The translations under genes and the position numbers were made by a program. A DNA stretch of 44,890 bases from Rotaria sp. Taxonomy: Eukaryota. A model generated the notes under the pieces. That model saw only the letters and a program-made list of their open reading frames with translations. It did not search any database and was not told where the DNA came from. This document shows, in pieces, positions 14,105 through 44,736 of the stretch (position 1 is the stretch's first letter; every line of letters begins with the position of its first letter). Location: the NCBI GenBank assembly GCA_905330235.1, contig CAJNUA010000046.1, positions 386,707 to 431,596 on the forward strand, read 5' to 3'.

Positions 14105-15130
14105 TTAATCCTTTAGTTCATTTTTTTCTCGTTGTGCTTCTAGTTTTTTTGTGACAATATCTACAGGATATTTTAATGCTAATCGTCGAATATCATAACT
14201 AAATTCTTCAAAAGTTTCACGCCATAAACGAGCTTCTTCTGGTGTATAATTATAAAAACCATTAGCATTCAAAATACCTTTTCCACCGGCTTTAACAATA
14301 TCATCGATGAGTTTCGGTATTTCAGTGCCATTATGAAGTGTAGGAAGTAAATCTTTCATAACAGAATGATAAGCTGGAATGCCAGTAAGATCCATCCATC
14401 GAAAGCATCCAACTAATGTCATCCAATAACCAGCATTATTACGACATGCTCGATCAACATCGTCAACAGAAGCATATCCATTTTCGACTAAATAAAAAGC
14501 TTCTCGATATAAAGCATACATGAGACGATTCGTAATAAAACCACGAATATCTTTTCGTACGAGTGTTGGTTCTTTAGCCCAGTGATGTGCAAGTTGATAT
14601 AACCATTCAGCTTTTTTTGGATCACTAGTGTCACCACAAATAACTTCTAAAAATCGTGTTGTATGAGATGGTTCAGCCCAATGTAAGCCGAGAAAACGAC
14701 TTGGTATACGAGTTTCTTGTTGAAGAAGACTAATTGGAATGGCTGATGTATTGCTTGTTATAATCGTATGGTCAGCAACAACATTTTCAATATTTTTATA
14801 TACTTGTCTTTTAATTGTGATATCCTCAAGAGTACATTCAATAACTAAGAAAGTATCCTTGAGACGAGTATAATCTTCGGTAATGGTCAGATTTTTGAAG
14901 TAAAAAGCTGGTTGTTCTAAACAAATTTCTTGTTCGAATGATCGAACAAGATGTTCATGAATACGAGCTTCAGCAGTTTCAAGATCGATTGGAAGTGATG
15001 CGATTGCTACAACTGAATGACCAGCTATTAAAAGACAAGTACTAATACTACAGCCCATAAGACCTAAACCAACCACACCGACTGTTATTTGTGCAGGAAC
15101 AATAGTTGAGATATTTTCTTTGGTATCCAT
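14105..15130 (-). CDS. 3-hydroxyacyl-CoA dehydrogenase family protein (NAD-binding Rossmann + HCDH C-terminal domain), intronless, 341 aa
   Basis: Single ORF from a true ATG. GxGxxG motif VGVVGLGLMGCSIS near the N-terminus, a central ...HWAEPSHTTRFLEVI... segment, and a C-terminal half typical of the 3-hydroxyacyl-CoA / 3-hydroxybutyryl-CoA / L-carnitine dehydrogenase family. Confidence 0.8.
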   Translation of the reverse strand: MDTKENISTIVPAQITVGVVGLGLMGCSISTCLLIAGHSVVAIASLPIDLETAEARIHEHLVRSFEQEICLEQPAFYFKNLTITEDYTRLKDTFLVIECTLEDITIKRQVYKNIENVVADHTIITSNTSAIPISLLQQETRIPSRFLGLHWAEPSHTTRFLEVICGDTSDPKKAEWLYQLAHHWAKEPTLVRKDIRGFITNRLMYALYREAFYLVENGYASVDDVDRACRNNAGYWMTLVGCFRWMDLTGIPAYHSVMKDLLPTLHNGTEIPKLIDDIVKAGGKGILNANGFYNYTPEEARLWRETFEEFSYDIRRLALKYPVDIVTKKLEAQREKNELKD

Positions 15131-16029: not shown

Positions 16030-16899
16030 TTAAGATCTAGGAATAGGTTCGAAGATTAATGATAGTTGTTTACCATCACGATAGAATCCACCATTTTGTA
16101 GTTCATTTTGAGGAGTATTGACTGCGTGCAGAATAGAATTAGCACCTATTTCAGGAGAACGAGCATCAGATGCATTTTGCGTCATATCAGTAGCACAATA
16201 TCCTGGAGTCACTGATATGACCAGTAGATTTTTACTAATTGACCATTCACGTGCTTCTATTTGAGTAAGTGCATTTAATGCTGCTTTAGAAATACCATAA
16301 ATTGGAGTGAATGTTTTATTATGATATCCTAAATCTTCAAGTGTGTTTGTTTCGATAGCTGCAATAAAATCTTCAACTAATTGATCAAGTTCTTTTATTG
16401 TTAATGTTGGTGATATATATTTATCTCGAAGAATAGTTGAAGATTCATACAATGCTATCGCACCTACTTGACTAGAAACATTAATAATACGTCCATTTTT
16501 TCTGATCATTGGAAATAATTGTTCATTGAGTAATTTAATGCCATAATAATGAACAGCAAATGTTTTTCGCGCTGCATCAACAGTGAGATCATTTAACAAA
16601 ATTCCAGCATTATTAATGACTATATCCAATTGTCCACCATATTTTTCTTTAATTTCATTAACCATTTGATTGATACTTTCTATTGATAACATGTCCAATT
16701 GAAGAGGATGAACATTGGACGGAGAACCGAGTTGTTCAAATGCATCTTGACCACGCTTTAAATCTCGACTACCAAGAAGAATAACAGTATTGTTCAATGA
16801 TGATTCGTTTAAAAGTTTTTTTACAACATGAAAACCAATGCCTTTATTAGCACCAGTGACAAGAATCACACGTTGTTGTTTTGTTGACAACATGTCCAA
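16030..16899 (-). CDS. Short-chain dehydrogenase/reductase, carbonyl reductase [NADPH]-like, intronless, 289 aa
   Basis: VTGANKGIGFHVVKKLL cofactor-binding motif, NNAGI, catalytic YGISKAALNAL (YxxxK), and a C-terminal TPGYCATDMT segment as in CBR1-type SDRs. True ATG at 16899. Confidence 0.8.
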   Translation of the reverse strand: MDMLSTKQQRVILVTGANKGIGFHVVKKLLNESSLNNTVILLGSRDLKRGQDAFEQLGSPSNVHPLQLDMLSIESINQMVNEIKEKYGGQLDIVINNAGILLNDLTVDAARKTFAVHYYGIKLLNEQLFPMIRKNGRIINVSSQVGAIALYESSTILRDKYISPTLTIKELDQLVEDFIAAIETNTLEDLGYHNKTFTPIYGISKAALNALTQIEAREWSISKNLLVISVTPGYCATDMTQNASDARSPEIGANSILHAVNTPQNELQNGGFYRDGKQLSLIFEPIPRS

Positions 16900-19817: not shown

Positions 19818-20000
19818 CTGCACCCGCACCCATACCCATACCTATACCAATACCCAGACCCAAACTCATTGCACACCAACACCCACACCCACACCCAAAC
19901 TCATTGCACACCTATACCAATACCCAGACCCAAACTCATTGCACACCAACACCCACACCCACACCCAAACTCATTGCACACCTAAACCCACATCCACATG
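19818..20000. repeat. CACCCA-type minisatellite containing two 60-bp higher-order copies, ~330 bp upstream of the MVP-1 ATG
   Basis: ataccaatacccagacccaaactcattgcacaccaacacccacacccacacccaaactcattgcacacct repeated twice; source of the spurious Pro/His/Thr-rich ORFs 19661..20050. Confidence 0.8.
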
Positions 20001-20518: not shown

Positions 20519-23414
20519 GTGAGTTTCCTATGCGGTAAGACGAAAAAGTAAAATATTATTTTTTATTTCTATAGCCCGCTACATTATTGTATTGTCGAAT
20601 CGCCAGTTGTACGCAACGAGGAAGGTGAAGTAGAATTCGATCAAAATGGTCAACCGAAATTGGTTCATGCTGATATTGATATTCGTCTGACACAGCCTGA
20701 TCAAACTCCGTTTCCTCTCTATCCAGGAGAAATTCTTCGCCAGGTATAATATTTTTAAAACGTTATTTGCTCGCATTAACCATTATTTATAGTCTGTCAC
20801 GGCACTTACAGTTGTCCCAGCTAATTCAGCACTGCGATTAAAAGCTGTACTCGATTTTGAGGATTTGCATAAGGAACAACGACGAGCCGGTGATGAATGG
20901 ATGTTCGAAGGCCCGGCTACCTACATTCCTCGTAAAGAAGTCAATGTCGAACAACAAATTCAAGCAACTATTATTGGTCCTAATCAAGCCATTCGGCTTT
21001 GTGCTAAAAAGGACCTTACTGATCGATCAGGTCAACATCGTGTCACTGGAGAAGAGTGGCTACTCAAGAAGACTGGTGCCTATTTGCCATTAGCCTATGT
21101 AATTTCTCTAGTATTTGTTTTCGTCGTTACCTGTTCATGTCAATCTTATAGGAAACGGTTGTATCAGTTCAAAATGCCTATGCTTTAACTGAGAAAAAAG
21201 CTCTTCATCTTCGAGCCCTTAAAACTTTCATTGACGATTTTGGTGAACAACGTTTGAATGGAGAAGAATGGCTTGTGACGCATGTTGATACGGAAACCCA
21301 CATTCTCAGTATATACGAAGAACTTGTTGCTGTTGTCGATGCAATCACACTCAACTCACGACAGTACTGTGTCATTCTCAATCCAGTTACCGATGGCAAA
21401 CCACAACTCGGACGAAAGGTCGGTATTTTGTCAAAAGATAAATATAAAAAAATATCGTATAGTTATTTTATTTAGAAATTGGTCGTTGGCGAAATATCAT
21501 TCTTTCTCCAACCAGGCGAAAAACTTTTAAAAGGCATTCAAAACGTTTTCATTTTAGGTGAAGACGAAGGTGTTATTGTCAAATGTAATGAAACATTTGA
21601 GGATGCACAAACAAAGAAAGTACGTATTCCGGGTGAACGATGGATGATTCGAGGGCCAACGTAGGTTACTTTTTCTCTCATTACAGAACATTTTGAATAT
21701 ATAGCTATTGTTTTTGAACTCTTAGTGAATATATTCCACCTACTCAAGTCGAAGTTGTCACTCGACGACAAGCAATTCCATTAGATGAAAATGAAGGCGT
21801 CTATGTTCGCAATATTAAAAGTGGCCGTGTTCGAACAGTAGTTGGTGAAACTTACATGTTAACACATGATGAAGAACTTTGGAACAAAGAATTACCCGAA
21901 CAAATCGAATACTTACTAACCCGTGATCCATTGACTGAACGCTATTCTGCCATGCGTGGAACGGTCTCGGTCAACAGTGGATTGACAACTATTGCCTTAA
22001 ATAGTCAATCGAACAGTTCGACATCACTTACTATCAAACGCGCTAAATGGAAATTGATTACATATCGTGTTCCATATAATGCGGCTGTCCAAATCTATGA
22101 TTACAAATTGAAGAAAGCTCGTATTGTTTTCGGTCCGGAACTTGTCATGCTTGAGCCTGATGAACATTTTACTCTGATTTCTTTAAGTGGTGGTATACCC
22201 AAAAAACCTAATCAAGTTAACTCGCTTTGTTTACTACTCGGTCCGAATTTCTTCACTGATAGCATTGACATTGAGACGGCTGATCATGCTCGTCTCTCCC
22301 TTCAACTTGCTTACAGTAAGTTAAAAACACAGAAAAAACATTTAAAAATGTACATCATTGATTATTCTTTATTTGGCAGACTGGCACTTTGAGGTGAAAG
22401 ACATAAATGATACAAAAGAAGCGGCTAAACTCTTTTCAGTACCTGATTTTGTCGGAGATATATGCAAAGCCATAGCTTCACGTATTCGTGGTGCTGTAGC
22501 TAGCACTCAGTTTGATAATTTTCATAAAAATTCCGCTCACATCATTCGTGAGTCTGTGTTTGGTCTTGATGCGAATCAGTGTGTACGCGATCAAATTATC
22601 TTTCCACAAAATAACCTTGTCATTACATCGATCGACATTCAAAATGTTGAGCCTGTCGATATACGTACGCGTGATGCACTACACAAGAGTGTGCAACTGG
22701 CCATTGAAGTATGAACTTAAATTGTTTGCCTTTTCTGCAATGTTAACAACAATTTCTACTTTAGATAACGACGAATTCGCAAGAAGCCGCTGCTAAACAT
22801 GAAGCTTCACGTCGTGAACAAGAAGCTAGAGGTTCCTTAGAACGACAGCGTATCAAAAATGAAGCTGAAGCCGAAAAGATCCGACAAATACTACTCGAAT
22901 CACAAGCCCTATCAGCGGCGATCGAATTAACTGGTCAAACCAAAGCAGAAGCTTTGAGTCGTGCTGAATCGAAGCGTATTGAAGGCGAAACAGCCGTTCA
23001 TCAAGGTATTTACTTTGCTACATTTATATAATGAAAACTTATTCTTTTTCTCGATCCATTGCAGCACGTCGCAAAGCTGAGGCGACCAAAATCGACGATG
23101 AAGCCGAATTGGCCCATTTGAGATTGATACGCGAAGGTGAAATTAGGTTTTTACGCGAACAAAACGAACTAGAAATTAAGAAAAAAGCCGAATTGTCTCG
23201 AATCGAGACTGAAAAATTTAAATTGCAAGTCGAATCAATCGGTACTTCAACTATTCAAAGTATTGCTACATCGGGTCCTGAGACTCAAGTTAAACTTTTG
23301 CAAGCACTCGGAATACAATCGATGCTTGTTACTGATGGCAAAAGTCCAATCAATCTCATGGACTTCGGTCAAGGTCTACTCGGTGGTCTAACAGACCGTC
23401 ATGTAATTAACTAA
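20325..23414 (+). CDS. MVP: Major vault protein paralog 1, gene span (9 coding exons, ~876 aa)
   Basis: Translation aligns end to end with MVP: [14 protein letters not shown]..., the repeat domains, [33 protein letters not shown], the coiled-coil cap helix, and the C-terminal [20 protein letters not shown]. All splice phases are consistent. Confidence 0.9.
20575..20743 (+). CDS. MVP: MVP-1 exon 2
   Basis: Acceptor atag; [56 protein letters not shown]; donor gtataa. Confidence 0.85.
20793..21098 (+). CDS. MVP: MVP-1 exon 3
   Basis: [50 protein letters not shown]...TGAYLPLAY; donor gtaatt. Confidence 0.85.
21152..21418 (+). CDS. MVP: MVP-1 exon 4
   Basis: [26 protein letters not shown]...[18 protein letters not shown]; donor gtcggt. 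Confidence 0.8.
21476..21660 (+). CDS. MVP: MVP-1 exon 5
   Basis: [32 protein letters not shown]...RWMIRGPT; donor gtaggt; phase 2. Confidence 0.85.
21726..22315 (+). CDS. MVP: MVP-1 exon 6
   Basis: [11 protein letters not shown]...[28 protein letters not shown]...[14 protein letters not shown]; donor gtaagt; phase 1. Confidence 0.85.
22380..22708 (+). CDS. MVP: MVP-1 exon 7
   Basis: [41 protein letters not shown]...SVQLAIE; donor gtatga. Confidence 0.9.
22765..23005 (+). CDS. MVP: MVP-1 exon 8
   Basis: [38 protein letters not shown]...ETAVHQ; phase 1. Confidence 0.85.
23065..23414 (+). CDS. MVP: MVP-1 exon 9 (stop at 23412-23414)
   Basis: [26 protein letters not shown]...[47 protein letters not shown]. 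Confidence 0.9.
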
Positions 23415-25787: not shown

Positions 25788-28700
25788 CTAAAGAGATTAT
25801 TAGACAAACGATTGAGCAACATAAATATGAGGAATATATCTACTTGATTGTCAGGTCCACTAGTGGCAATAGCTTGAATTGTTTGAGATCCTATAGCAGC
25901 CACATGCTCCTTGAATTCTTCGATTTCAATATTAGTAATTCGTTTCGTTTTTTCAATTTCAAGTTCAGATGTTAATTTATCATGTGCCAATTCGAGTTCA
26001 CGTGTTTGCATCAAGCGATCGAGTTCAGTATCAGATTTAATCTTCCCTGCTTCAGCTCGAAGAGTAGCTATTAGAAAAGATCTCGGTCTTCGACTAAAGA
26101 TTTACAAAAACCAATTTCGAACATACCTTGTTCGACAGCTGCGTCTCCCTCGATTATCGCTGCTTCTGCACGCGACTTAGCTTCAGCATGCGATTGGCCA
26201 ACCAATTCTACAGCTGCCGAACGTGCTTGAAGCACCAACAGCTCCTGACGTTCCTTTTCGGCTAGAAAAATTAAGATTACATATATAGTCTATAGAATAA
26301 TATAGGTTAATGGGTAAAGCTCGAAATCAAATGGTAGACGTGGAGTCATGATATTGGAAATTGATGGTCTACAAAGTGTGACAATCTCAGATACAATTTA
26401 CGTCGAATGATTGATATTATTTTATTAGAGTGCGGAAGAATTATGTAAGCTTTATAGATAGGTTCTGAAAGCGACCATATTGATACTTTTAGATGAACAG
26501 AATAAAAATGAAATTTTGTCTTATCTTTTCAAGTTAACATGTAAACAAAGTCGAAACACTATGCTAATCTCTAATACATATACACAAGAGTGCAAAACAA
26601 TAATAATCGTCTACCTTCAGCTTCATCGGTGATCCTTTGTCGTTCCAGATAACCTTTGGCTTCTTGTTGAATTCGTGAAGCCATATGCCTATTAAAAAAA
26701 AACATGAAAATAGTCGTTTTTTTTCTATCTCATCATTTCTTTTACTTGGCTTGAGCTTCTTGTGAGTTAGTCGTTATCTAAAGTAGAATTTTGACAAAGT
26801 CAGATAAATATTTATCGAAAGAGAATTTAATTACTTCAATAGCTAGTTGAACGCTCTTCTGAAGAGCATCTTGTGTTCTTTGATCGACCGGTTTAACGCT
26901 TTGAATATCGATTGAAGTGAGAACAAGATTATTTTGTGTGAAGACAAGTCGATTATTAATTCGCTTGTTTTCATCAATACCAAAAACGGACGTACGGATA
27001 ATTTTGGCCGAATTTTTATGAAAATCGTCAAATGAAATACCAGCAACAGCACCACGAATTTTTGCTGCGACAGTCTTGCAAAAGTCTCCAACAAAATCAG
27101 GTACTGAAAAGAGTTTAGCTACATCTTTGCTATCATTCTTATCGGCAACCTAGAAATAGAAGGCACACTCTTTCTGTTGCTGATTAAAAAATACGATTTC
27201 TCACTTCGAAATACCAACTATAGGACAACTGGAGTGAGAGTCGAGCATGGTCACTCGATTCAATGGTTACGACATCAGTTGAAAACTCCGGTCCAAGCAA
27301 AAGGCACATAGCACGGATTCTGTTTGGAACCTTCGGCTTATCACCGGATAGGTTAAGAATTGTAAATTGCTCATCAGGACCAAGCATAACAAGTTCAGGC
27401 CCGAAAATGATACGAGCGTTTTTAGATTTATAATCATAAATTTGTACACATGCATTATGTGGTACACGATAAGTGATTACTTTTGATTTGTCTCGAGGTG
27501 GAAGCACAGCGATTACTGCTGATTGGTTTTTAAAGTGGCGAACATCAAGTGCAAGTAATTGTTCGACTTCAGTTGGTAATTCTTTTTCCCAGAGTTCTTC
27601 ATTTTCGGTAAGTAGATAGGTACTACCGATAATTGAACGAATTTTGCCCATCTTGACATTACGTACATATATACCTTCGTTTACATCCAATGGAATAGAT
27701 TTTCGTCGATTTACAACCTCAACTTCGATAGCCGGAATATAATCTCTAGGACCTCGAATCATCCAAAGATCACCTGGATTGTGTATTACATTCTCAAAAG
27801 TTAAGAAATAATTTTCAAAGAAAATAAAAAAATTCTACTAACTTTCTCTTCGCTAAATGCTTCGATACATCGAAGAATAAGACCTTCGTCTTCTTCAAGT
27901 ACATACACATCCTGAATACCGTTGGCAAACTTCTCACCTGGCTGCAGAAAAAAGATCGCTTCACCCTAGTCGAAAACGCCCTCATTAGTGGAATAACATT
28001 AATAATAGTAACAGCCATACTTTAACAAGTTTTTTCTTTCCTAGCTGAGGTTTACCGTTTGAGCCGACTGGATCAATAATGATACAATATTGGAGAGAAT
28101 GAAGTACGGTAACCGGAACAATATCAACCACCTATTAATTATTTTTTAAGTGTTTTAAGTGATAGTAGACAAAGAAGAAGAAAAAACCTCTTCATAAACA
28201 TCGGGTATATATGTTTCAGCATCGTTAGCATATACCAACCATTCTTCACCATGAAGACGTTTACGTTTGAATATATCAACAAATGTTCGTAAAGCACGAA
28301 TGTGAAGAGCTTTCTAAACATGCAGTTATAATGAATAACAACAAATAGTATTTATTTCGTTGGCTCATACTTTGTCGGTTAACACGTAGGCCTTGACAAT
28401 CGAAACAACTTCTTCGTAAGCCGATGGTAAATAAGAACCAACCATTTGAATGAGCCATTCTTCACCTGCTTCACGCTCAATACCGTTTCTGTCAATCATT
28501 TTCTTTTTAGCACGCAGACGAATCGCTTCATTCGGTTTCAAAATATTAGCTTGAATTTCCCTATCAACATGAACTTCTTTGCGTGGGAAATAGGTTCCTA
28601 AAAAAATGAATATGAAAATCAATAACGAAATCTTATTGAGTCTGTTTTATATGTCAGCGTTGCAGTAGTGCATCATTTTCAATTTCTGAACTAACAGTAT

Positions 28701-29259
28701 CGTATCGAACCTGGTCCCTCAAAGAGAAATTCTTCACCAGCGTGAACTTCTTGGCCATTGTCATCAACAAAATCAAGTACAGCACGTAGACGAAGAGCTC
28801 TATTGGGCTCGACTACTTGAAGTGGGCTGACAGCTTTTCTGAGTACTTCACCAGGATAGAGCGGAAATGGATCTTGAGAAAATCGAATTTCAATATCCGA
28901 ATGAAACAATTTGACTTGACCATTCGCATCAATAACAATTTCACTGTCATTGCCGCGTACAACTGGGTTTTCAATAACACAATAGTGACGAGGGCTGTAA
29001 AAATCAAAATGAAACAATCAATAGAATTATAAAGACTACATACGGAATAATTAACATGCGTTCTGGTCCAATTAGAACTTTTTCATGATCTTGTTTAACA
29101 AATGTCTGTGGGCCAACTTCAAGATGAGTAACGTTTGTATTTTGATCGAGTACATGGACATAGTAGAATGGTAGAATTCGGTAAACTAAATAGAAATATC
29201 ATCATAAATACTATTGCGGAGACGAAATACTCACCACCAGTAACTTCCGAACAGGCCAT
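25644..29259 (-). CDS. MVP: Major vault protein paralog 2, gene span (14 coding exons, ~849 aa), convergent with MVP-1
   Basis: Minus-strand translation reads MACSEVTG|[32 protein letters not shown]..., LSYSWYFE|[37 protein letters not shown]..., and ...[33 protein letters not shown]...*. Total coding length is 2550 nt with consistent phases. Confidence 0.85.
25844..26067 (-). CDS. MVP: MVP-2 exon 13
   Basis: [75 protein letters not shown]; donor gtagat. Confidence 0.85.
26127..26261 (-). CDS. MVP: MVP-2 exon 12
   Basis: [45 protein letters not shown] + g; donor gtatgt. Confidence 0.8.
26615..26688 (-). CDS. MVP: MVP-2 exon 11
   Basis: (K)[24 protein letters not shown] + g; acceptor ttaatag; donor gtagac. 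Confidence 0.7.
26746..26777 (-). CDS. MVP: MVP-2 exon 10 (32-nt micro-exon)
   Basis: [10 protein letters not shown] + aa; acceptor ctttag; donor gtaaaa; needed to keep frame between exons 9 and 11. Confidence 0.65.
26835..27149 (-). CDS. MVP: MVP-2 exon 9
   Basis: [57 protein letters not shown]...QKSVQLAIE; donor gtaatt. Confidence 0.9.
27205..27792 (-). CDS. MVP: MVP-2 exon 8 (588 nt)
   Basis: [27 protein letters not shown]...[36 protein letters not shown]...[15 protein letters not shown]; donor gtgaga. Confidence 0.85.
27843..27965 (-). CDS. MVP: MVP-2 exon 7
   Basis: [41 protein letters not shown]; donor gttagt. Confidence 0.8.
28021..28131 (-). CDS. MVP: MVP-2 exon 6
   Basis: [37 protein letters not shown]; donor gtatgg. 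Confidence 0.8.
28188..28313 (-). CDS. MVP: MVP-2 exon 5
   Basis: [42 protein letters not shown]; non-consensus donor gag|gttttt. Confidence 0.7.
28371..28597 (-). CDS. MVP: MVP-2 exon 4
   Basis: [75 protein letters not shown]; donor gtatga. Confidence 0.85.
28711..28994 (-). CDS. MVP: MVP-2 exon 3
   Basis: [95 protein letters not shown]. Confidence 0.85.
29044..29185 (-). CDS. MVP: MVP-2 exon 2
   Basis: Acceptor ctatttag; (V)[47 protein letters not shown]; donor gtatgt; phase 2 (shared with the MVP-1 intron 1 position). Confidence 0.8.
29235..29259 (-). CDS. MVP: MVP-2 exon 1 (ATG 29257-29259)
   Basis: MACSEVTG + g; donor gtgagt. Confidence 0.65.
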
Positions 29260-38880: not shown

Positions 38881-38985
38881 TGGGTTGGATTGGGTTGGGT
38901 TTGGTTGGAATGGGTTGGGTTGGATTCGGTTGGGTTGGGTTGGGTTGGGTTGGGTTGGGCCGGAATAGGTTGGGTTCGGTTGGGA
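38881..38985. repeat. (TTGGG)n-like pentanucleotide array (tgggt/tggat/ttggt units)
   Basis: tgggttgggttgggttgggttgggttgggc... Confidence 0.8.
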
Positions 38986-39259
38986 AATTCATTTTCGCTT
39001 ACAAGTAATTATAGATAATATGTACATTTATTGAGGTTGCCATAGGGCAAACTTAAGTTCGGAATTCAATTTTAGCTGACACCCATAAATTGCCTGCCAG
39101 CTTCTGCAAGTAGTTGCTGCCTGACATTTGGTCATCCAAGACGCTACCAACAGCTATTAATCAAAATCTAGACGCACCGAGCACAACGCCCCCATGCAAA
39201 CTGGAACCCATCATCGCACTCAGATCCACAAGCCATATCACACCAACACCGTCAACTTC

Positions 39260-39525
39260 ACCCACACACAAATCCCACACATACACCGACACACAAATCC
39301 CACACATACACCCACACACAAATCCCACACATACACCCACACACAAAGCCCACACATACACCCACACACAAATCCCACACATACACCCACACACCGGCCC
39401 ATACATCAACACCCACATACCGACCCATACATCAACACCCACACACCGACCCATACATCAACACCCACATACCGACCCATACATCAACACCCACACACCG
39501 ACCCATACATCAACACCCACACCCT
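39260..39525. repeat. Two adjacent minisatellites: 24-bp unit cacacaaatcccacacatacaccc (x4) followed by a ~28-bp unit acaccgacccatacatcaacacccacat (x4)
   Basis: Read directly; generates the spurious His/Thr/Pro-rich ORFs 39114..39694. Confidence 0.8.
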
Positions 39526-40535: not shown

Positions 40536-41831
40536 TCATCGAATAGAACTAGCTTTTCATTTTTTCCAAAATTGGATTTAGAAAACACGTCTGGTGATTT
40601 ACGTGGTTTTGATGTCACCAAATTTTCTTTTCATTATATAACCATGACAATCAGTATTGAGCCTAAATATTTTCTACTAATTTATGTTATAATCTATGAC
40701 AAGTCTTTTTTCCTTATCTATAGTCTTCCTCAGGTATTGTCAGTAAATTGTTTAATCTTCGTTCCATTTGATTTTGTTATGGACTAATAGAGCTGGGTCG
40801 GTTGATCAGAAATATTACATTTTTTTCGAAATCATTTCAGAAAGAAGGAAGATTCGAAGCTCTTCTTTTTGTAGTCCAATTTGAAATCGAATTCTTCTCT
40901 GCTTTTGAGTTCATAATTGAATGTCGGACTACTATATACATTTTGAAAGACATTATTCTTCGTTATGTTAGTATCATTGTCGAAATTCATAGTTAAATAA
41001 ATGTGGAAACCTCGGATTTAGATCCGAGAGTTATGTGTACTTCAAAAAGTGAATTAGACAGATGAGTCATCCTAGAATGTGTGGACATCAAAATTATCCT
41101 GGCAAATCTTTCCTATAAACACTTGACTTCTATTGGCTATTGCTCACCCAATATGACTTGGGGGCGAATACAGCTCAGATTCGAACTCGTCGTCTTGATT
41201 TACCTTAAGAAAGTCGTTTTTTTCTATCAGTTGATTTATATTGGTTACCCCTCAACCAACAGGATTTCGAGGTAAGTGGAGTACAGATTCGAGTTCTCCA
41301 GTCCAGAAAACCTCAAAGTATCATCTCTGTGATCAGAAGACTGAGCTCTAATTGTGGATCAATTAGACTGTGGACGAAAACAGAACCAATTTCCGTTTAG
41401 TTATCTTTGTAATCGTTGAGTTAATCTTCTTGTTTCTTTATGTTTTATATGGGCGTGTAAAGCCGACCTGATACCCCAAGATATATTTGCTGATATAGCT
41501 TCAACTATTTATCGGAAAAATAGGCTTTTTTTACTAGTTGTACTTTGCATATAGTACTACTCATCGGACACTATTTGAGGTTTATATTACTTAGAATGAG
41601 AGCTGATGAGTACGTCCTTATGATTATTATGCTACATGTGCTTCATATCGTATTTATTACCATCTCGTTCTCAGTGTATATCTCGTTCCTGATAAGGTTT
41701 TATCCATTCTCTCGTGTGTTTACATTCTAGTCACACCACATTTCTCCTAACTTTGATTTTTTTTCTTTCTCTGTCTTTCATTTTACTGAATGCACTCTCA
41801 CACAATAGCAAACGCTCACTAACTTCGTATT

Positions 41832-42075
41832 ATGTTCTCTCCACAACTTGAATGGAGTTGTTCTCGATGTCGATCTACCATGTTTGATCGCCGGAAGTAT
41901 TGTACCGATTGTCATTCTATGTTAAGTTGGACATGTATTGGTTCGAAAAAATCTGGTTTGTACACAAATTATTATCATCGTCGTGACAATTGTATTTATT
42001 GTACACCAGAACTCGAAGAAGAAAAACAACGGAATATGAAGGAAAAGCAACAACAGTTTCGAACTTTGGATGACA
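41832..42075 (+). CDS. Harbinger-like transposase exon 1 (Cys/His-rich N-terminus)
   Basis: ATG at 41832; CSRCRSTMFDRRKYCTDCHSMLSWTCIGSKKSGLYTNYYHRRDNCIYCTPELEEE...; donor a|gtaagt at 42076; phase 1. Confidence 0.6.
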
Positions 42076-42132
42076 GTAAGTAATATTACTTTTCTCAGTT
42101 TACACATGCACTTCTGGTTCCGTTGTTTTTAG

Positions 42133-43028
42133 AACAACATCCGTGGTTAGAATGGGGACGTAGCAATGAATCTTGCCTACAACATACCGGGCATGACGTT
42201 GAACAAGTACAACAACTATATTCTATGTGTGAACAAGCACTTATAAACTACTGCTCTCACCGGAGCGAACAACATTTAGACAGTACTATGACACCATATT
42301 TATCTCCTATGAATTTGCTGTTAGTTACATTATGGTACTTAAAACACTACCATTCTGAACGCTATATTGCTACAGAAGCGAATTTGACGCAAAAGGGAGT
42401 GAATTATTTCTTATCATCGATTCTGGATATTTTACATTCCTGTGTATATCCGGAGTTAGTTTCACTACCTGTTGATCTAGCGAGCAGAAGAACACCACAT
42501 GGACCTGAACGACAACATAAACTAATCGTTGATTCGACTTTTATTGCAATACCTGAACCTTATGATTCAGAAGAACGTAAAGCATATTATCATGCAAAAA
42601 GTCCAACAAATTATGCATTAAAAGTTCAAATAGCTTGCAATTTTCTTCATCGAATTGTTCATGTATCCAAATGCTATCATGGAAGTGTACATGACATTAC
42701 AATTCTAAGAGATTCAAGTCTATTAGAACACGTAAACGACTCTGTACAAATTATTGCAGACAAAGGATACATTGGTGAAGAAAATGTAGTTACTCCAAGA
42801 AAAAAACCTCATTGACGTGAATTAACAGATGAAGATAAAGATTTTAATCGTGATATTAATAGTGCAAGAGCAGCTATTGAAAATATTAACCAGCGTCTTA
42901 AAAGTTATGCTATTCTTGATGATGTTTATAGAGGAGCTATCGATAACTTCCATAAAGCAACACAAATTGTACAAGTCGTTTCTGCTCTGTGTAATTTGAA
43001 CTTAAATAAACATCCTATTGGTAGATAA
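42133..43028 (+). pseudogene. Harbinger-like transposase exon 2 (DDE_Tnp_4 core) interrupted by a single in-frame TGA at 42813-42815
   Basis: Acceptor ttttag at 42132, with phase completing aaa. The core reads ...KLIVDSTFIAIPEPYDSEERKAYYHAKSPTNYALKVQIACNFLHRIVHVSKCYHGSVHDITILRDSSLLEHVNDSVQIIADKGYIGEENVVTPRKKPH*RELTDEDKDFNRDINSARAAIENINQRLKSYAILDDVYRG...IGR*. It contains the HARBI1/PIF signature (D...NxKxxHSxxVQ..C..., PGSxHD, xDxGY, then LTxEDxxFNRxIxxxRxxIExxxxRLK) and continues in the same frame after the stop. Confidence 0.7.
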
Positions 43029-43654
43029 AAACAACGATAAGCTGTATTTGTTCATTTACTAGTTGAAAAGGAAACTTTGCTACTGATGTTTCGTATTGAT
43101 TTAAAATTCTTAGTAGCATACAGTGTACGTTAATAAATACGATATGAAGCACATGTAGCATAATAATCATAAGGACGTACTCATCAGCTCTCATTCTAAG
43201 TAATATAAACCTCAAATAGTGTCCGATGAGTAGTACTATATGTAAGGTACAACTAGTAAAAAAATCATATTTTTCCGATAAACAGTTGAAGCTATATCAG
43301 CAAATATATCTTGGGGTATCACGTCGCCTTCTCACGCCCATATACCATTTTGTAGCTCGTGAAATTCTCTGTCGAATGGTATATAATAGTTGGAGTTTTA
43401 TTTGATTATGATAGTAAAAGCTTTTTACGAAAGTGAGAATAGGTCGATTTTCCTATAGGAAGCCATAGGGAAAAATTACTATTTTTGCAATAACTCAGGA
43501 ACGGCTCGGCCAGTCATGCTCATCTTCGAACTCGACCGAGATATTGTTAAGACTGAACTGTGTAGAAAATTTCATCGCAATCGAACTCTCCTTTCAAAAG
43601 TTATCGTGTAAACGGCTGGACGGTCGGCCGGACGGACTCACTGACCGATTCTAG

Positions 43655-43680
43655 AGTGTACTCACTTTTTGAGTACACAA
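43655..43680. repeat. Perfect 9-bp-stem palindrome gtgtactca-cttttt-tgagtacac
   Basis: agagtgtactcactttttgagtacacaaaaag. Confidence 0.6.
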
Positions 43681-43683
43681 AAA

Positions 43684-43915
43684 GATTTCCTTGGCCGAAA
43701 AAATCGAGTTCGAAATTTTGAAAATCTGACTTCAGATTCGGATTCCCCGACTCTGATTTATTTTCGTCAACCTTTATACAACATCATTACTTTCTCAAAA
43801 AATATTTCCTTCACCGGAAAAATTCAACTGAAAATATTGAAGAACCTACTTCAGATTCGGATTCCTCGACTCTGAATTACCTTCGGTCAAACTTTATAAT
43901 GTTCTTTAATCCCAC
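43684..43915. repeat. Two tandem ~118-bp units
   Basis: ...cttcagattcggattccccgactctgatttattttcgtcaacctttataca... matches ...cttcagattcggattcctcgactctgaattaccttcggtcaaactttataat... Confidence 0.65.
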
Positions 43916-44082
43916 GACCTTTGACTTGCCACAAACATACAGACACACAGACCAGCCCATTTTATTTTATATGGCCCTCCCTTCAATTGAGGGAATAAGC
44001 TCACGAAACGAGCTAACTTTAAGATGCAAAACAGTAATTTACAAAAGTTAGATATAGATGTGAAAGATTCCGAGTAGCTCGG

Positions 44083-44190
44083 ATTGGATAGGAATGGATA
44101 GGAATGGATGGGAATGAATGGGAATGGCTGGGAATGTATAGGAATGGCTGGGAATGGCTAGGAATGGATGGGAATGCCAGAGAATGCCCG
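44083..44190. repeat. (GGAATGGNTG)n 10-bp tandem array, ~10 copies
   Basis: ggataggaatggataggaatggatgggaatgaatgggaatggctgggaatgtataggaatggctgggaatggctaggaatggatgggaatgccag; no unique spacers, so not a CRISPR array. Confidence 0.8.
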
Positions 44191-44586
44191 AATGAGTTTT
44201 TTCCCCCATGCGTAAAACACTTAAGACAAAATGTTACGAAAACGGACACAGAGACAGTTCGAAAATTATTCAACAAGCAGGTTAAAATTTTTTCGTTCTC
44301 TGTACATTTCAATTATTGAATAACAAAGATCTTATTATTTTTACTAACTTGGTGTTTATAGTGTTTGGTATGTACTTTAGAAAGTTTCAAATGAAAATTC
44401 AAATATGTTGGATTTTTATTTAAAAAAACCAATCAGAATGTATGACTCTTCACTATCTTAAAATCATTCAAAAAGTAAATAACCATACATTTTTCTTCAA
44501 CAAGTAGTCAAAAGATTTGATTGCTTCAACCTCACGCGATCGATCACATGCAGCAATTCAAAAGCTGGATTAACAAATTATTTCAG

Positions 44587-44716
44587 GGTGTGGGTGTGGG
44601 TGTGGATAAATAGAAGAGCAGCACACACCCACACCCACACCACACACCCCACACCCACACCCACACCCACACCCACACCCACACCCACACCCACACCCAC
44701 ACCCACACCCACACCC
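44587..44716. repeat. Palindromic (GGGTGT)3 - 17 bp - (CACACC)~18 block
   Basis: gggtgtgggtgtgggtgtgg ataaatagaagagcagca cacacccacacccacacc...; the left part is the reverse complement of the right repeat unit. Confidence 0.8.
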
Positions 44717-44736
44717 TCGGGATTACCCTGGGTTCT

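What the first reader, a model, noticed from the sequence alone, without database searches (positions are those of the whole stretch)
41449..43342. Nearly intact PIF/Harbinger-like transposon with unusually long (~210 bp) TIRs and a transposase disabled by a single in-frame TGA
The element is only ~1.9 kb, yet it carries a 2-exon DDE_Tnp_4 transposase (~380 aa) with a Cys/His-rich N-terminal exon and a complete catalytic core. The reading frame continues cleanly for 70 more codons after the lone TGA at 42813-42815, up to the conserved LTxEDKDFNRxI...RLK tail, so inactivation is very recent or is a sequencing error. Alternatively the codon may be decoded, since TGA is W in some genetic codes and Sec elsewhere.

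The TIRs are ~96% identical over ~210 bp, far longer than the 14-50 bp typical of PIF/Harbinger. No second ORF for a Myb/SANT partner protein, which canonical Harbingers need, is visible between the TIRs.

The transposase may therefore work alone or rely on a trans-acting partner. The long TIRs suggest a foldback-like variant of the superfamily.
Basis: partly seen in the sequence, partly recalled or inferred. Interest (0 to 1): 0.6.

Follow-up and report, generated by a model that had tools for sequence, protein, structure and literature searches.

The report
Dead IS5-like transposon copy in rotifer
This is a real, full-length but decayed copy of a small cut-and-paste DNA transposon from a family common in bdelloid rotifers; it is closer to bacterial IS5 elements than to PIF/Harbinger, and its stop codon is an ordinary Gly-to-stop mutation.

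Summary
A ~1.9 kb element (41446-43344) has 214-nt inverted ends that are 96% identical. It carries a two-exon gene for a DDE_Tnp_4 transposase of 378 codons with one in-frame TGA.

- **Host:** Rotaria sp. Silwood2, a bdelloid rotifer.
- **Family:** more than 130 homologous proteins exist in Rotaria, Adineta and Didymodactylos. Intact copies are 372-387 aa.
- **Element size:** related elements are 1.85-2.03 kb with TIRs of up to 219 nt that align across the family, so this copy is not a deletion derivative or a foldback oddity.
- **The TGA:** it replaces GGA (Gly) found in a 98% and a 90% identical copy. It is a nonsense mutation, not recoding.
- **Decay:** the copy also carries derived changes at conserved residues (D251N, G277S). 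It differs from the 98% copy at 10 nonsynonymous and 1 synonymous codon.
- **Classification:** the family profile scores bacterial IS5 transposases at 60-79 bits, Harbinger at 7-30 and ISL2EU at 10-19. A tree places it in its own clade, whose members share an N-terminal zinc-finger motif.
- **Flanks:** they read (T)ATAT, not TWA.

It probably belongs with IS5_Av of Adineta vaga. That link rests on my memory of the 2009 paper and could not be checked.

The parts
41446..41450 (.). Left flank TATAT. This is either the target-site duplication (AT/TA, or ATAT) or the outermost bases of the TIR. The sequence is palindromic, so the two cannot be told apart.
   Evidence: 23 of 26 family termini have 'at' next to GGG, and 19 of 26 have 'atat'.
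41451..41659 (+). Left terminal inverted repeat. It starts GGGCGTG and contains the conserved blocks GATACCCC, a T7 block (GGC-T7-ACTAGTTGTA in this arm, which has two changes in the upstream TGA) and ATATAGTACTA..ATC.
   Evidence: 214-nt inverted repeat, 96%; 26 family ends align over ~215 nt.
41660..41831 (+). Region between the left TIR and the start codon. It is presumed to hold the promoter and 5' UTR (inferred).
   Evidence: Coordinates. No test was run.
41832..42075 (+). Exon 1. It encodes the N-terminal Cys/His-rich module (CxxC...CxxC, then C...H-x3-C-x2-C), a putative zinc-binding DNA-recognition domain.
   Evidence: H50, C54 and C57 are invariant and C35 is nearly invariant, even in 25-34% identical relatives. 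The AlphaFold2 model has pLDDT 69-87 over residues 1-60.
42076..42132 (+). Spliceosomal intron (GTAAGT...TTTTAG, 57 nt, phase 1).
   Evidence: One search shows the same position and GTAAGT/TAG boundaries in 8 related loci, with lengths of 57-114 nt.
42133..43029 (+). Exon 2. It encodes an HTH_Tnp_4-like region (aa 138-183, 42300-42437) and the DDE_Tnp_4 catalytic domain (aa 214-369, 42528-42995). The stop codon is TAA at 43027-43029.
   Evidence: DDE_Tnp_4 E = 2.5e-29; HTH_Tnp_4 is weak here at E = 0.073 but reaches 1e-8 in relatives.
42813..42815 (+). Premature TGA at codon 309, derived from GGA (Gly). It cuts the protein off before the catalytic E331.
   Evidence: GGA in L043 (98% identical copy) and L044 (90% copy). 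'KKPHGRELT' in the homologues.
42639..42641 (+). Derived AAT (Asn) in place of the near-invariant GAT (Asp251).
42717..42719 (+). Derived AGT (Ser) in place of the near-invariant GGT (Gly277).
43131..43339 (-). Right terminal inverted repeat. An AATAAA at 43133-43138 is a possible polyadenylation signal (inferred).
43340..43344 (.). Right flank ATATA, the counterpart of the left TATAT.

Best explanation
The feature is one inactivated but structurally complete copy of a single-gene cut-and-paste DNA transposon. The family is multi-copy in bdelloid rotifers, and the window comes from Rotaria sp. Silwood2.

The family belongs to the IS5/PHIS (DDE_Tnp_4) superfamily. Within it, it forms its own eukaryotic lineage, closer by profile score to prokaryotic IS5-type transposases than to PIF/Harbinger or ISL2EU. 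It is probably the lineage first seen as IS5_Av in Adineta vaga.

**Inferred mechanism for intact members**
- One protein carries its own DNA-binding modules: an N-terminal Cys/His zinc module encoded by exon 1, and an HTH_Tnp_4 region. It also carries an RNase-H-like D-D-E catalytic core.
- The protein would recognise conserved sequence blocks spread over the ~215-nt TIRs and excise the element.
- It would then reinsert into TA-rich (ATAT-like) targets with a short duplication of 2-4 bp.
- No Myb/SANT partner would be needed.

**This copy**
It cannot make active enzyme. A GGA-to-TGA mutation at codon 309 removes the catalytic Glu, and further derived changes hit conserved residues. It could move only if an intact copy elsewhere supplied transposase, and even then its TIRs have diverged by 4%.

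**Shown:** structure, family membership, the origin of the stop codon, the decay, TIR conservation, and the conserved intron.
**Inferred:** the DNA-binding role of the zinc module, the TSD length, and the activity of intact copies.
For: - **Structure and domains:**
- **Host:** the 3-hydroxyacyl-CoA dehydrogenase ORF of the window is identical to Rotaria sp. Silwood2 proteins.
- **Family size and intact members:** 131 and 142 hits in two searches, all named hits from bdelloids, with full-length proteins of 372-387 aa.
- **Same architecture elsewhere:**
  - L002, R. sordida: 1961 bp, TIR 219 nt, 98.6% identical.
  - L005, R. magnacalcarata: 2033 bp, TIR 219 nt.
  - L008: 1983 bp.
  - L007: 2030 bp.
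  - L004, A. ricciae: 1854 bp.
  - L011: 1940 bp, TIR 209 nt.
- **TIR conservation:** 26 TIR ends align over ~215 nt with conserved blocks.
- **Stop codon:** TGA here is GGA in the 98% and 90% copies. Differences from the 98% copy are 10 nonsynonymous to 1 synonymous.
- **Invariant D215, D291 and E331**.
- **Classification:** profile scores are IS5 60-79 bits, Harbinger 7-30 and ISL2EU 10-19. The best NCBIfam model is transpos_IS5_4. tblastn gives 25-29% identity to cyanobacterial and actinobacterial IS5/IS1182 transposases. The tree shows a clade with 100% bootstrap, separate from Harbinger.
- **Zinc motif:** conserved in 25-34% identical relatives.
- **Intron:** position and GT-AG boundaries are conserved.
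- **Fold:** the best Foldseek match of the model is Tn5 transposase (prob 0.97).
Against: - No transposition, transcription or splicing data are available.
- The TSD could not be fixed. The flanking ATAT is palindromic, two copies (L004, L005) have AA at one end, and no empty site was available.
- The tree is a rough NJ tree on 283 columns, with reference sequences taken from a machine-read supplementary PDF. Deep branching between the family, ISL2EU and bacterial IS5 is unresolved.
- The link to IS5_Av rests on my recollection of the 2009 abstract (213-bp TIRs). The paper and its sequence could not be retrieved, and no Adineta vaga protein appeared among the listed hits.
- The AlphaFold2 model is of moderate quality only (pLDDT 67.5).
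Confidence: 0.85

Rival explanations
1. It is a canonical PIF/Harbinger transposon that has lost its Myb/SANT partner ORF or relies on one supplied in trans.
For: Pfam DDE_Tnp_4 is the domain of PIF/Harbinger and HARBI1. The TIRs begin with G, as is common in that group.
Against: - The family profile gives only 7-30 bits to eight fish and amphioxus Harbinger transposases, against 60-79 bits to bacterial IS5 transposases.
- Harbinger forms a separate clade with 100% bootstrap.
- None of the full-size relatives has room for a second ORF.
- The flanks are (T)ATAT, not TWA.
Confidence: 0.05
2. It is a member of ISL2EU, the animal group with AT duplications, GG termini and TIRs of up to 259 bp.
For: The termini start GG, are flanked by AT in 23 of 26 ends, and the TIR length lies within the ISL2EU range of 6-259 bp.
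Against: - No THAP domain is found.
- There is no second ORF (YqaJ exonuclease) and no room for one.
- The element is 1.9 kb, against an average of ~4.8 kb.
- ISL2EU transposases score only 10-19 bits against the family profile and do not group with it.
- The bases around the AT are T..A, not the A|AT|T target reported for ISL2EU.
Confidence: 0.07
3. It is a recent horizontal transfer of a bacterial IS5-family insertion sequence into the rotifer genome.
For: Of the reference sets tested, bacterial IS5 transposases score highest against the family profile. Bdelloids are known for acquiring foreign genes, and IS5_Av was first discussed in these terms.
Against: - A conserved spliceosomal intron is present.
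- A zinc-finger exon is present that the three bacterial IS5 transposases compared here do not share.
- Identity to bacterial proteins is only 25-29%, and all scores fall below the NCBIfam cut-offs.
- Many diverged copies (55-80% identity) occur in at least seven bdelloid species.
- Distant relatives carry chromodomains, a domain typical of eukaryotic chromatin proteins.
Confidence: 0.03
4. The TGA is not a lesion. Either it is a sequencing or assembly error, or it is read through or recoded (Sec or Trp), so the copy is functional.
For: The reading frame continues cleanly for 69 sense codons after the TGA to a conserved C-terminus.
Against: - The homologous codon is GGA (Gly), not TGG, TGT or TGC, in close DNA copies.
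- ORFs elsewhere in the window end in TGA in the ordinary way. That test is weak.
- The same copy carries four other derived nonsynonymous changes, two at near-invariant residues. Its difference from the 98% copy is almost all nonsynonymous (10 to 1), which is the signature of a pseudogene.
- A base-call error cannot be excluded without reads, but it would not restore the other changes.
Confidence: 0.05

Closest known systems
IS5_Av of Adineta vaga (Gladyshev & Arkhipova 2009, Mol Biol Evol 26:1921; cited in PMC3673617 and PMC10045372)
   Same: - The host is a bdelloid rotifer.
- The transposase is IS5-like and the element has a single transposase gene.
- From my memory of the abstract, the TIRs are 213 bp, matching the 214-219 nt measured here.
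- It was found in a telomeric region. This window also carries telomere-like (TGTGGG)n arrays.
   Different: IS5_Av was reported as single-copy and transcriptionally silent in A. vaga. The family here has many diverged copies in Rotaria, including intact ones. Whether IS5_Av has the intron and the zinc-finger exon is unknown to me. Sequence identity could not be tested because neither the paper nor the sequence is held.
Prokaryotic IS5-family insertion sequences (NCBIfam transpos_IS5_4; IS5/IS1182-annotated transposases of cyanobacteria and actinobacteria)
   Same: They share the HTH_Tnp_4 plus DDE_Tnp_4 core, with 25-29% identity over aa 101-372. Of the reference sets tested they score highest against the family profile (60-79 bits). 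They also have a single ORF and short target duplications.
   Different: The element here has a eukaryotic host, a spliceosomal intron, an extra N-terminal zinc module and ~215-nt TIRs. Its scores fall below the curated IS5 cut-offs (69 bits against 140).
ISL2EU (PHIS superfamily; PMC4482050)
   Same: GG termini, an AT dinucleotide next to the ends, long TIRs possible (up to 259 bp), and animal hosts.
   Different: ISL2EU transposases carry THAP, and the elements have a second ORF (YqaJ) and average ~4.8 kb. The transposases are only distantly similar to this family (10-19 bits) and fall in a separate clade.
PIF/Harbinger (PHIS superfamily; PMC4482050)
   Same: DDE_Tnp_4 catalytic domain and the cut-and-paste TIR element design.
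   Different: Harbinger makes TWA duplications, needs a Myb/SANT partner ORF, averages ~4.1 kb, and 93% of its TIRs are under 60 bp. Its transposases form a separate, strongly supported clade.

Membership tests
IS5/PHIS superfamily (DDE_Tnp_4 cut-and-paste transposons) | Transposase with a full DDE_Tnp_4 domain | tested here: met
   Pfam PF13359, E = 2.5e-29, profile positions 1-158 of 158.
IS5/PHIS superfamily (DDE_Tnp_4 cut-and-paste transposons) | Conserved D-D-E catalytic triad | tested here: met
   D215, D291 and E331 are invariant across the family. In this copy E331 lies after the premature stop.
IS5/PHIS superfamily (DDE_Tnp_4 cut-and-paste transposons) | Terminal inverted repeats bounding the element | tested here: met
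   214-nt inverted repeat, 96% identical. The same holds in related loci.
IS5/PHIS superfamily (DDE_Tnp_4 cut-and-paste transposons) | Short target-site duplication (0-4 bp) | tested here: inconclusive
   The flanks are (T)ATAT on both sides in most copies. This fits 2 or 4 bp, but the sequence is palindromic and no empty site was available.
IS5/PHIS superfamily (DDE_Tnp_4 cut-and-paste transposons) | RNase-H-like transposase fold related to IS4/Tn5 | tested here: inconclusive
   The AlphaFold2 model has pLDDT 67.5. The best PDB match is Tn5 transposase (prob 0.97), but E = 0.015 and TM is about 0.3.
PIF/Harbinger sensu stricto | 3-bp TWA target-site duplication | tested here: not met
   No boundary choice gives TTA or TAA on both sides of the window copy or of L002, L007 and L008.
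PIF/Harbinger sensu stricto | Second ORF encoding a Myb/SANT DNA-binding protein | tested here: not met
   Only 172 and 101 nt between the TIRs are not taken by the transposase gene. The same holds for the 1.85-2.03 kb relatives.
PIF/Harbinger sensu stricto | Transposase groups with Harbinger transposases | tested here: not met
   Only 7-30 bits against the family profile. The Harbinger clade has 100% bootstrap and excludes the family.
ISL2EU | AT duplication and GG termini | tested here: inconclusive
   GGGCGTG termini are flanked by 'at' in 23 of 26 ends. The surrounding bases are T..A, not A..T, and the TSD is unproven.
ISL2EU | THAP domain in the transposase | tested here: not met
   No THAP hit at E <= 1. 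The N-terminal module has a different Cys/His pattern.
ISL2EU | Second ORF (YqaJ-type exonuclease) | tested here: not met
   There is no room for one.
ISL2EU | Transposase groups with ISL2EU transposases | tested here: not met
   Only 10-19 bits, and a separate branch in the tree.
Prokaryotic IS5 family | Transposase reaches the curated IS5 model cut-off | tested here: not met
   The best model is NF033581 transpos_IS5_4, at 69 bits against a cut-off of 140.
Prokaryotic IS5 family | Uninterrupted bacterial-type gene in a prokaryotic genome | tested here: not met
   A conserved GT-AG intron is present, and the host is Rotaria sp. Silwood2.
IS5_Av-type bdelloid element | Sequence similarity to IS5_Av and ~213-bp TIRs | not testable with these tools
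   Neither the paper nor the sequence is held. TIRs here measure 214-219 nt. The 213-bp figure comes from my memory of the abstract.
Foldback elements | Very long TIRs built of tandem sub-repeats that make up most of the element | tested here: not met
   The TIRs make up 22% of the element, and Tandem Repeats Finder reports nothing inside them.

The most novel reading that the evidence does not exclude
The Rotaria family, its conserved intron, its zinc-finger exon and its distant relatives (some with chromodomains) show that IS5_Av-type elements are a genuine and so far unnamed eukaryotic lineage of the IS5/PHIS superfamily. The lineage uses a single protein with a built-in zinc-finger DNA-binding domain and ~215-nt multi-block TIRs. 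This would settle the question left open in 2009, whether IS5_Av was a failed bacterial transfer or a rare eukaryotic superfamily, in favour of the second. It would also show that the lineage multiplied in Rotaria while staying single-copy in Adineta vaga.
Probability: 0.35. Interest if true: 0.5.

Novelty: new member of a known kind. Interest (0 to 1): 0.3.

Why it matters
The individual copy is an ordinary dead transposon and matters little. The family behind it is of moderate interest to transposon specialists for three reasons:
- It is a compact, one-protein member of the IS5/PHIS superfamily that does without the Myb-like partner of Harbinger elements.
- It keeps unusually long and well-conserved TIRs.
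- It bears on whether the IS5-like element described in Adineta vaga was a bacterial import or part of a eukaryotic lineage.

Intact copies, such as the R. sordida element with 98.6% identical TIRs, would be candidates for a small single-component transposition system.

Tried and rejected
1. **Reading the IS5_Av paper.** Tried by PMC id and by DOI; it is not held. Citing papers give only one-line summaries.
2. **Naming the hosts of the distant relatives.** Two cluster look-ups and a third protein search with P0188 returned only unnamed metagenome or Logan sequences.
3. **Searching from the Adineta ricciae protein to pull out an A. vaga homologue.** None appeared among the 120 listed hits.
4. 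**Looking for a paralogous empty site in the window to fix the TSD.** None was found.
6. **Testing whether the element sits next to telomeric repeats.** Exact (TGTGGG)n runs lie near the element in only 2 of 12 loci, so this idea was rejected.
7. **Other searches.** The Rfam scan of the window found nothing. The bacterial promoter and terminator scan was at chance level and is irrelevant for a eukaryote. The sequence search of solved structures gave nothing meaningful.
8. **First bootstrap tree.** It timed out and was redone with a faster distance method.
9. **Contig of the chromodomain relative P0188.** No DNA was available.
Full report
**Observation**

The repeat finder reports inverted arms at 41446-41659 and 43131-43344, 214 nt long and 96% complementary. 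There are nine mismatches. A local BLAST gives E = 7e-97 for the pair and finds no other copy in the window.

Joining 41832-42075 to 42133-43029 across a GTAAGT...TTTTAG intron of 57 nt gives 378 codons, with one internal TGA at 42813-42815 and a terminal TAA. Pfam matches DDE_Tnp_4 over its full length (profile 1-158 of 158, residues 214-369, E = 2.5e-29), straight across the stop. It also gives a weaker DDE_Tnp_1 match (5e-15) and a marginal HTH_Tnp_4 match. The transposase gene fills 1198 of the 1471 nt between the TIRs, so a partner ORF cannot fit.

**Host and context**

The window is AT-rich (33.7% G+C). It carries several interstitial arrays of telomere-like TGTGGG/CCCACA repeats. The intronless 3-hydroxyacyl-CoA dehydrogenase ORF at 14105-15130 is identical to proteins of Rotaria sp. 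Silwood2. The host is therefore a bdelloid rotifer.

**A large family with the same architecture**

A protein search returned 131 relatives. Every named hit comes from a bdelloid: Rotaria sordida, R. sp. Silwood1 and Silwood2, R. magnacalcarata, R. socialis, Adineta ricciae or Didymodactylos carnosus. The full-length proteins are 372-386 aa and cover 99-100% of the query at 65-78% identity (repeated from the A. ricciae protein). This confirms the two-exon model.

DNA around several of these genes shows the same element:

| Locus | Species | Element size | TIR |
|---|---|---|---|
| L002 | R. sordida | 1961 bp | 219 nt, 98.6% identical |
| L005 | R. magnacalcarata | 2033 bp | 219 nt, 96% |
| L008 | Rotaria sp. 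Silwood2 | 1983 bp | ~219 nt, 80% |
| L007 | R. sordida | 2030 bp | at least 145 nt, 98.6% |
| L004 | A. ricciae | 1854 bp | at least 152 nt, 93% |
| L011 | moss metagenome | 1940 bp | 209 nt, 97.6% |

About 1.9-2.0 kb is therefore the full size of the element.

Twenty-six TIR ends from 19 loci and the window align over about 215 nt. The conserved blocks are:
- GGGCGTG at the tip;
- GRTACCCC about 20 nt in;
- AGAAAAATNTGA-T7-ACCAGTTRTA;
- ATATARTGCTA..GATC.

The long TIR is thus a conserved, presumably functional trait of the family. It is not a foldback-like accident, and Tandem Repeats Finder sees no sub-repeats in it.

The intron sits at the same place with GTAAGT/TAG boundaries in at least eight loci, and its length is 57-114 nt.

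**The TGA**

In the protein alignment the stop lies at a Gly in the motif 'KKPHGRELT' in nearly all of the 17 homologues. At the DNA level the codon is GGA in a 98% identical copy from Rotaria sp. Silwood2 (L043) and in a 90% identical metagenomic copy (L044). So it is a G-to-T nonsense mutation, not a Trp or Sec codon.

The stop lies upstream of the catalytic Glu. D215, D291 and E331 are invariant.

The copy is also otherwise worn:
- At sites where L043 and L044 agree, the window has derived D251N, G277S, a Gly-to-Asp change (42918) and an Arg-to-Gly change (43020).
- Window and L043 differ at 10 nonsynonymous codons and 1 synonymous codon.
- Eight residues conserved in at least 90% of the family are changed in the window copy, some of them shared with its closest relatives.
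- The two TIR arms have diverged by 4.2%.

'Disabled by a single TGA, very recently' is therefore too generous. A base-call error at 42813 cannot be excluded without reads, but it would not change the picture of decay.

**Classification**

I built a profile from 14 full-length rotifer proteins and scored reference transposases against it.

| Reference set | Source | Score against the family profile |
|---|---|---|
| Three IS5/IS1182-annotated transposases (cyanobacterial and actinobacterial plasmids) | | 60-79 bits |
| Eight fish and amphioxus Harbinger transposases | supplement of PMC9179366, | 7-30 bits |
| Three ISL2EU transposases | same supplement | 10-19 bits |

The best NCBIfam model is transpos_IS5_4, well below its cut-off at 69 bits against 140.

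A neighbour-joining tree (283 columns, 100 bootstraps) recovers Harbinger as a 100% clade. It also recovers a separate 100% clade holding the rotifer family and a set of unnamed metagenomic relatives. ISL2EU and the bacterial IS5 sequences lie elsewhere, and the deep order is unresolved.

An exhaustive profile search found 4229 relatives at E <= 1e-3 and 66 at E <= 1e-30. Among the more distant ones (25-34% identity), several share the N-terminal Cys/His motif, with H50, C54 and C57 invariant and C35 nearly so. Three of them carry a C-terminal extension that reads as a chromodomain; Pfam confirms it in one (E = 5e-6).

One such relative sits on a 2184-nt contig whose two ends form a 43-nt inverted repeat reading CCACACATGGGCC...CCCC. 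This echoes the rotifer terminus ATGGGCGTG...CCCC.

Taken together, the family is a eukaryotic lineage of the IS5/PHIS superfamily. It is neither Harbinger nor ISL2EU in the strict sense, and it is not a fresh bacterial import. It has a conserved spliceosomal intron, a zinc-finger exon, many diverged copies in several host species, and only 25-29% identity to bacterial proteins.

**Ends and target**

Next to GGG the flank reads 'at' in 23 of 26 ends and 'atat' in 19 of 26. In the window the flanks are TATAT|GGGCG...CGCCC|ATATA.

Because (AT)n is its own reverse complement, these bases can be read in several ways:
- a 2-bp AT or TA duplication;
- a 4-bp ATAT duplication;
- part of the TIR.

Two copies (L004, L005) have AA at one end. 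No boundary gives TWA on both sides.

According to the PHIS survey (PMC4482050):
- Harbinger makes TWA duplications, and 93% of its TIRs are under 60 bp (range 5-1042 bp).
- ISL2EU makes AT duplications, has GG termini and has TIRs of 6-259 bp, but it carries THAP and a YqaJ ORF in ~4.8 kb elements.

The ends here look ISL2EU-like, while the protein and coding capacity do not.

**Mechanism (inferred)**

Intact members encode one protein with three parts:
- an N-terminal double Cys/His module (AlphaFold2 pLDDT 69-87 over residues 1-60);
- an HTH_Tnp_4 region (significant in relatives);
- a DDE core, whose model most resembles Tn5 transposase among solved structures (prob 0.97, E = 0.015).

The likely mode is classic cut-and-paste transposition, in three steps. 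The built-in DNA-binding modules recognise the conserved TIR blocks. The DDE core then cleaves at the GGG termini. Finally the element integrates into ATAT-like sites. This would explain why no Myb-like partner is needed. None of it was tested experimentally.

**Relation to what is known**

Gladyshev & Arkhipova (2009) described IS5_Av, a single-copy, transcriptionally silent IS5-like transposon in Adineta vaga. Later papers cite it as a likely prokaryote-to-eukaryote transfer.

From my memory of the abstract, IS5_Av has 213-bp TIRs. The authors also offered the alternative that it is the only known member of a rare eukaryotic superfamily.

The match in host group, IS5 affinity and TIR length makes it likely that the present family is the same lineage. 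I could not retrieve the paper or the sequence, so this remains a lead and not a test. The large survey of bdelloid transposons (PMC7943196) does not mention Harbinger, PIF or IS5 in its text.

**Verdict**

- **The feature** is real and correctly delimited, but it is an ordinary decayed transposon copy.
The superfamily, the absence of a partner ORF and the full length are right. The Harbinger label, the recoding idea, the 'single recent hit' and the foldback idea are not.
- **Novelty** is that of a new member of a known kind. It is a modest lead that this lineage is a distinct, multi-copy eukaryotic branch of IS5-like elements.

Noticed in passing
window 19840-19998, 38881-38984, 39259-39522, 44585-44718: Several interstitial arrays of telomere-like repeats (TGTGGG/CCCACA and degenerate variants of 25-70 nt period). 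I know TGTGGG as the bdelloid telomeric repeat, so this may be a subtelomere-like, repeat-rich region. Near related elements such repeats occur in only 2 of 12 loci, so they are not linked to the transposon.
   Followed up: partly
window 20560-22711 and 26832-29009: Two copies of a Major Vault Protein gene lie in inverted orientation (Vault_3, Vault_4 and MVP_shoulder hits at 21856-22392 on the + strand and 27184-27762 on the - strand). They are joined by a diverged inverted duplication (arms 72-73% identical) around a ~4 kb centre.
   Followed up: partly
window 14105-15130 (-) and 16030-16899 (-): Two neighbouring long uninterrupted ORFs: a 3-hydroxyacyl-CoA dehydrogenase (341 aa) and a short-chain dehydrogenase (289 aa). 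They stand out against the short-exon genes around them and could be candidates for horizontally acquired genes. Their origin was not examined.
   Followed up: no
window 43679-43885 and 44081-44176: Just to the right of the element lie two diverged 88-nt repeat copies (78% identical, starts 119 nt apart) and a 10-nt tandem array (GGAATGGATG, 9.6 copies). Their nature is unknown.
   Followed up: no
L043 (Rotaria sp. Silwood2 contig CAJOBM010039177.1) 1-1329: This is the closest DNA copy (98%), but it is rearranged. Positions 1-982 match element 42335-43316, and positions 978-1329 then jump back to element 42153-42504. This suggests a tandem or nested arrangement, or an assembly artefact.
   Followed up: no
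P0175, P0188, P0189 (metagenome/Logan proteins); L045 1-2184: Distant relatives (25-35% identity) share the N-terminal Cys/His motif without the insertion that other relatives show at the intron position. All three carry a C-terminal extension that reads as a chromodomain (Pfam-supported for P0175 only). L045 ends in a 43-nt inverted repeat containing ATGGGCC...CCCC. The host organisms are unknown.
   Followed up: partly
P0059, P0061, P0114, P0117, P0118 (Rotaria annotated proteins): Some annotated rotifer proteins fuse this transposase to unrelated domains (reverse transcriptase, NHL repeats, TIR domain). These are probably gene-model chimeras at insertion sites rather than real fusions.
   Followed up: no
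P0122, P0141, P0160, P0167, P0023 (alignment A3/A1 columns ~100-146): Several proteins called by prokaryotic gene finders carry an insertion exactly at the intron position. It looks like a read-through translation of an unspliced, stop-free intron, which would mean the intron position is older than the rotifer family.
   Followed up: no
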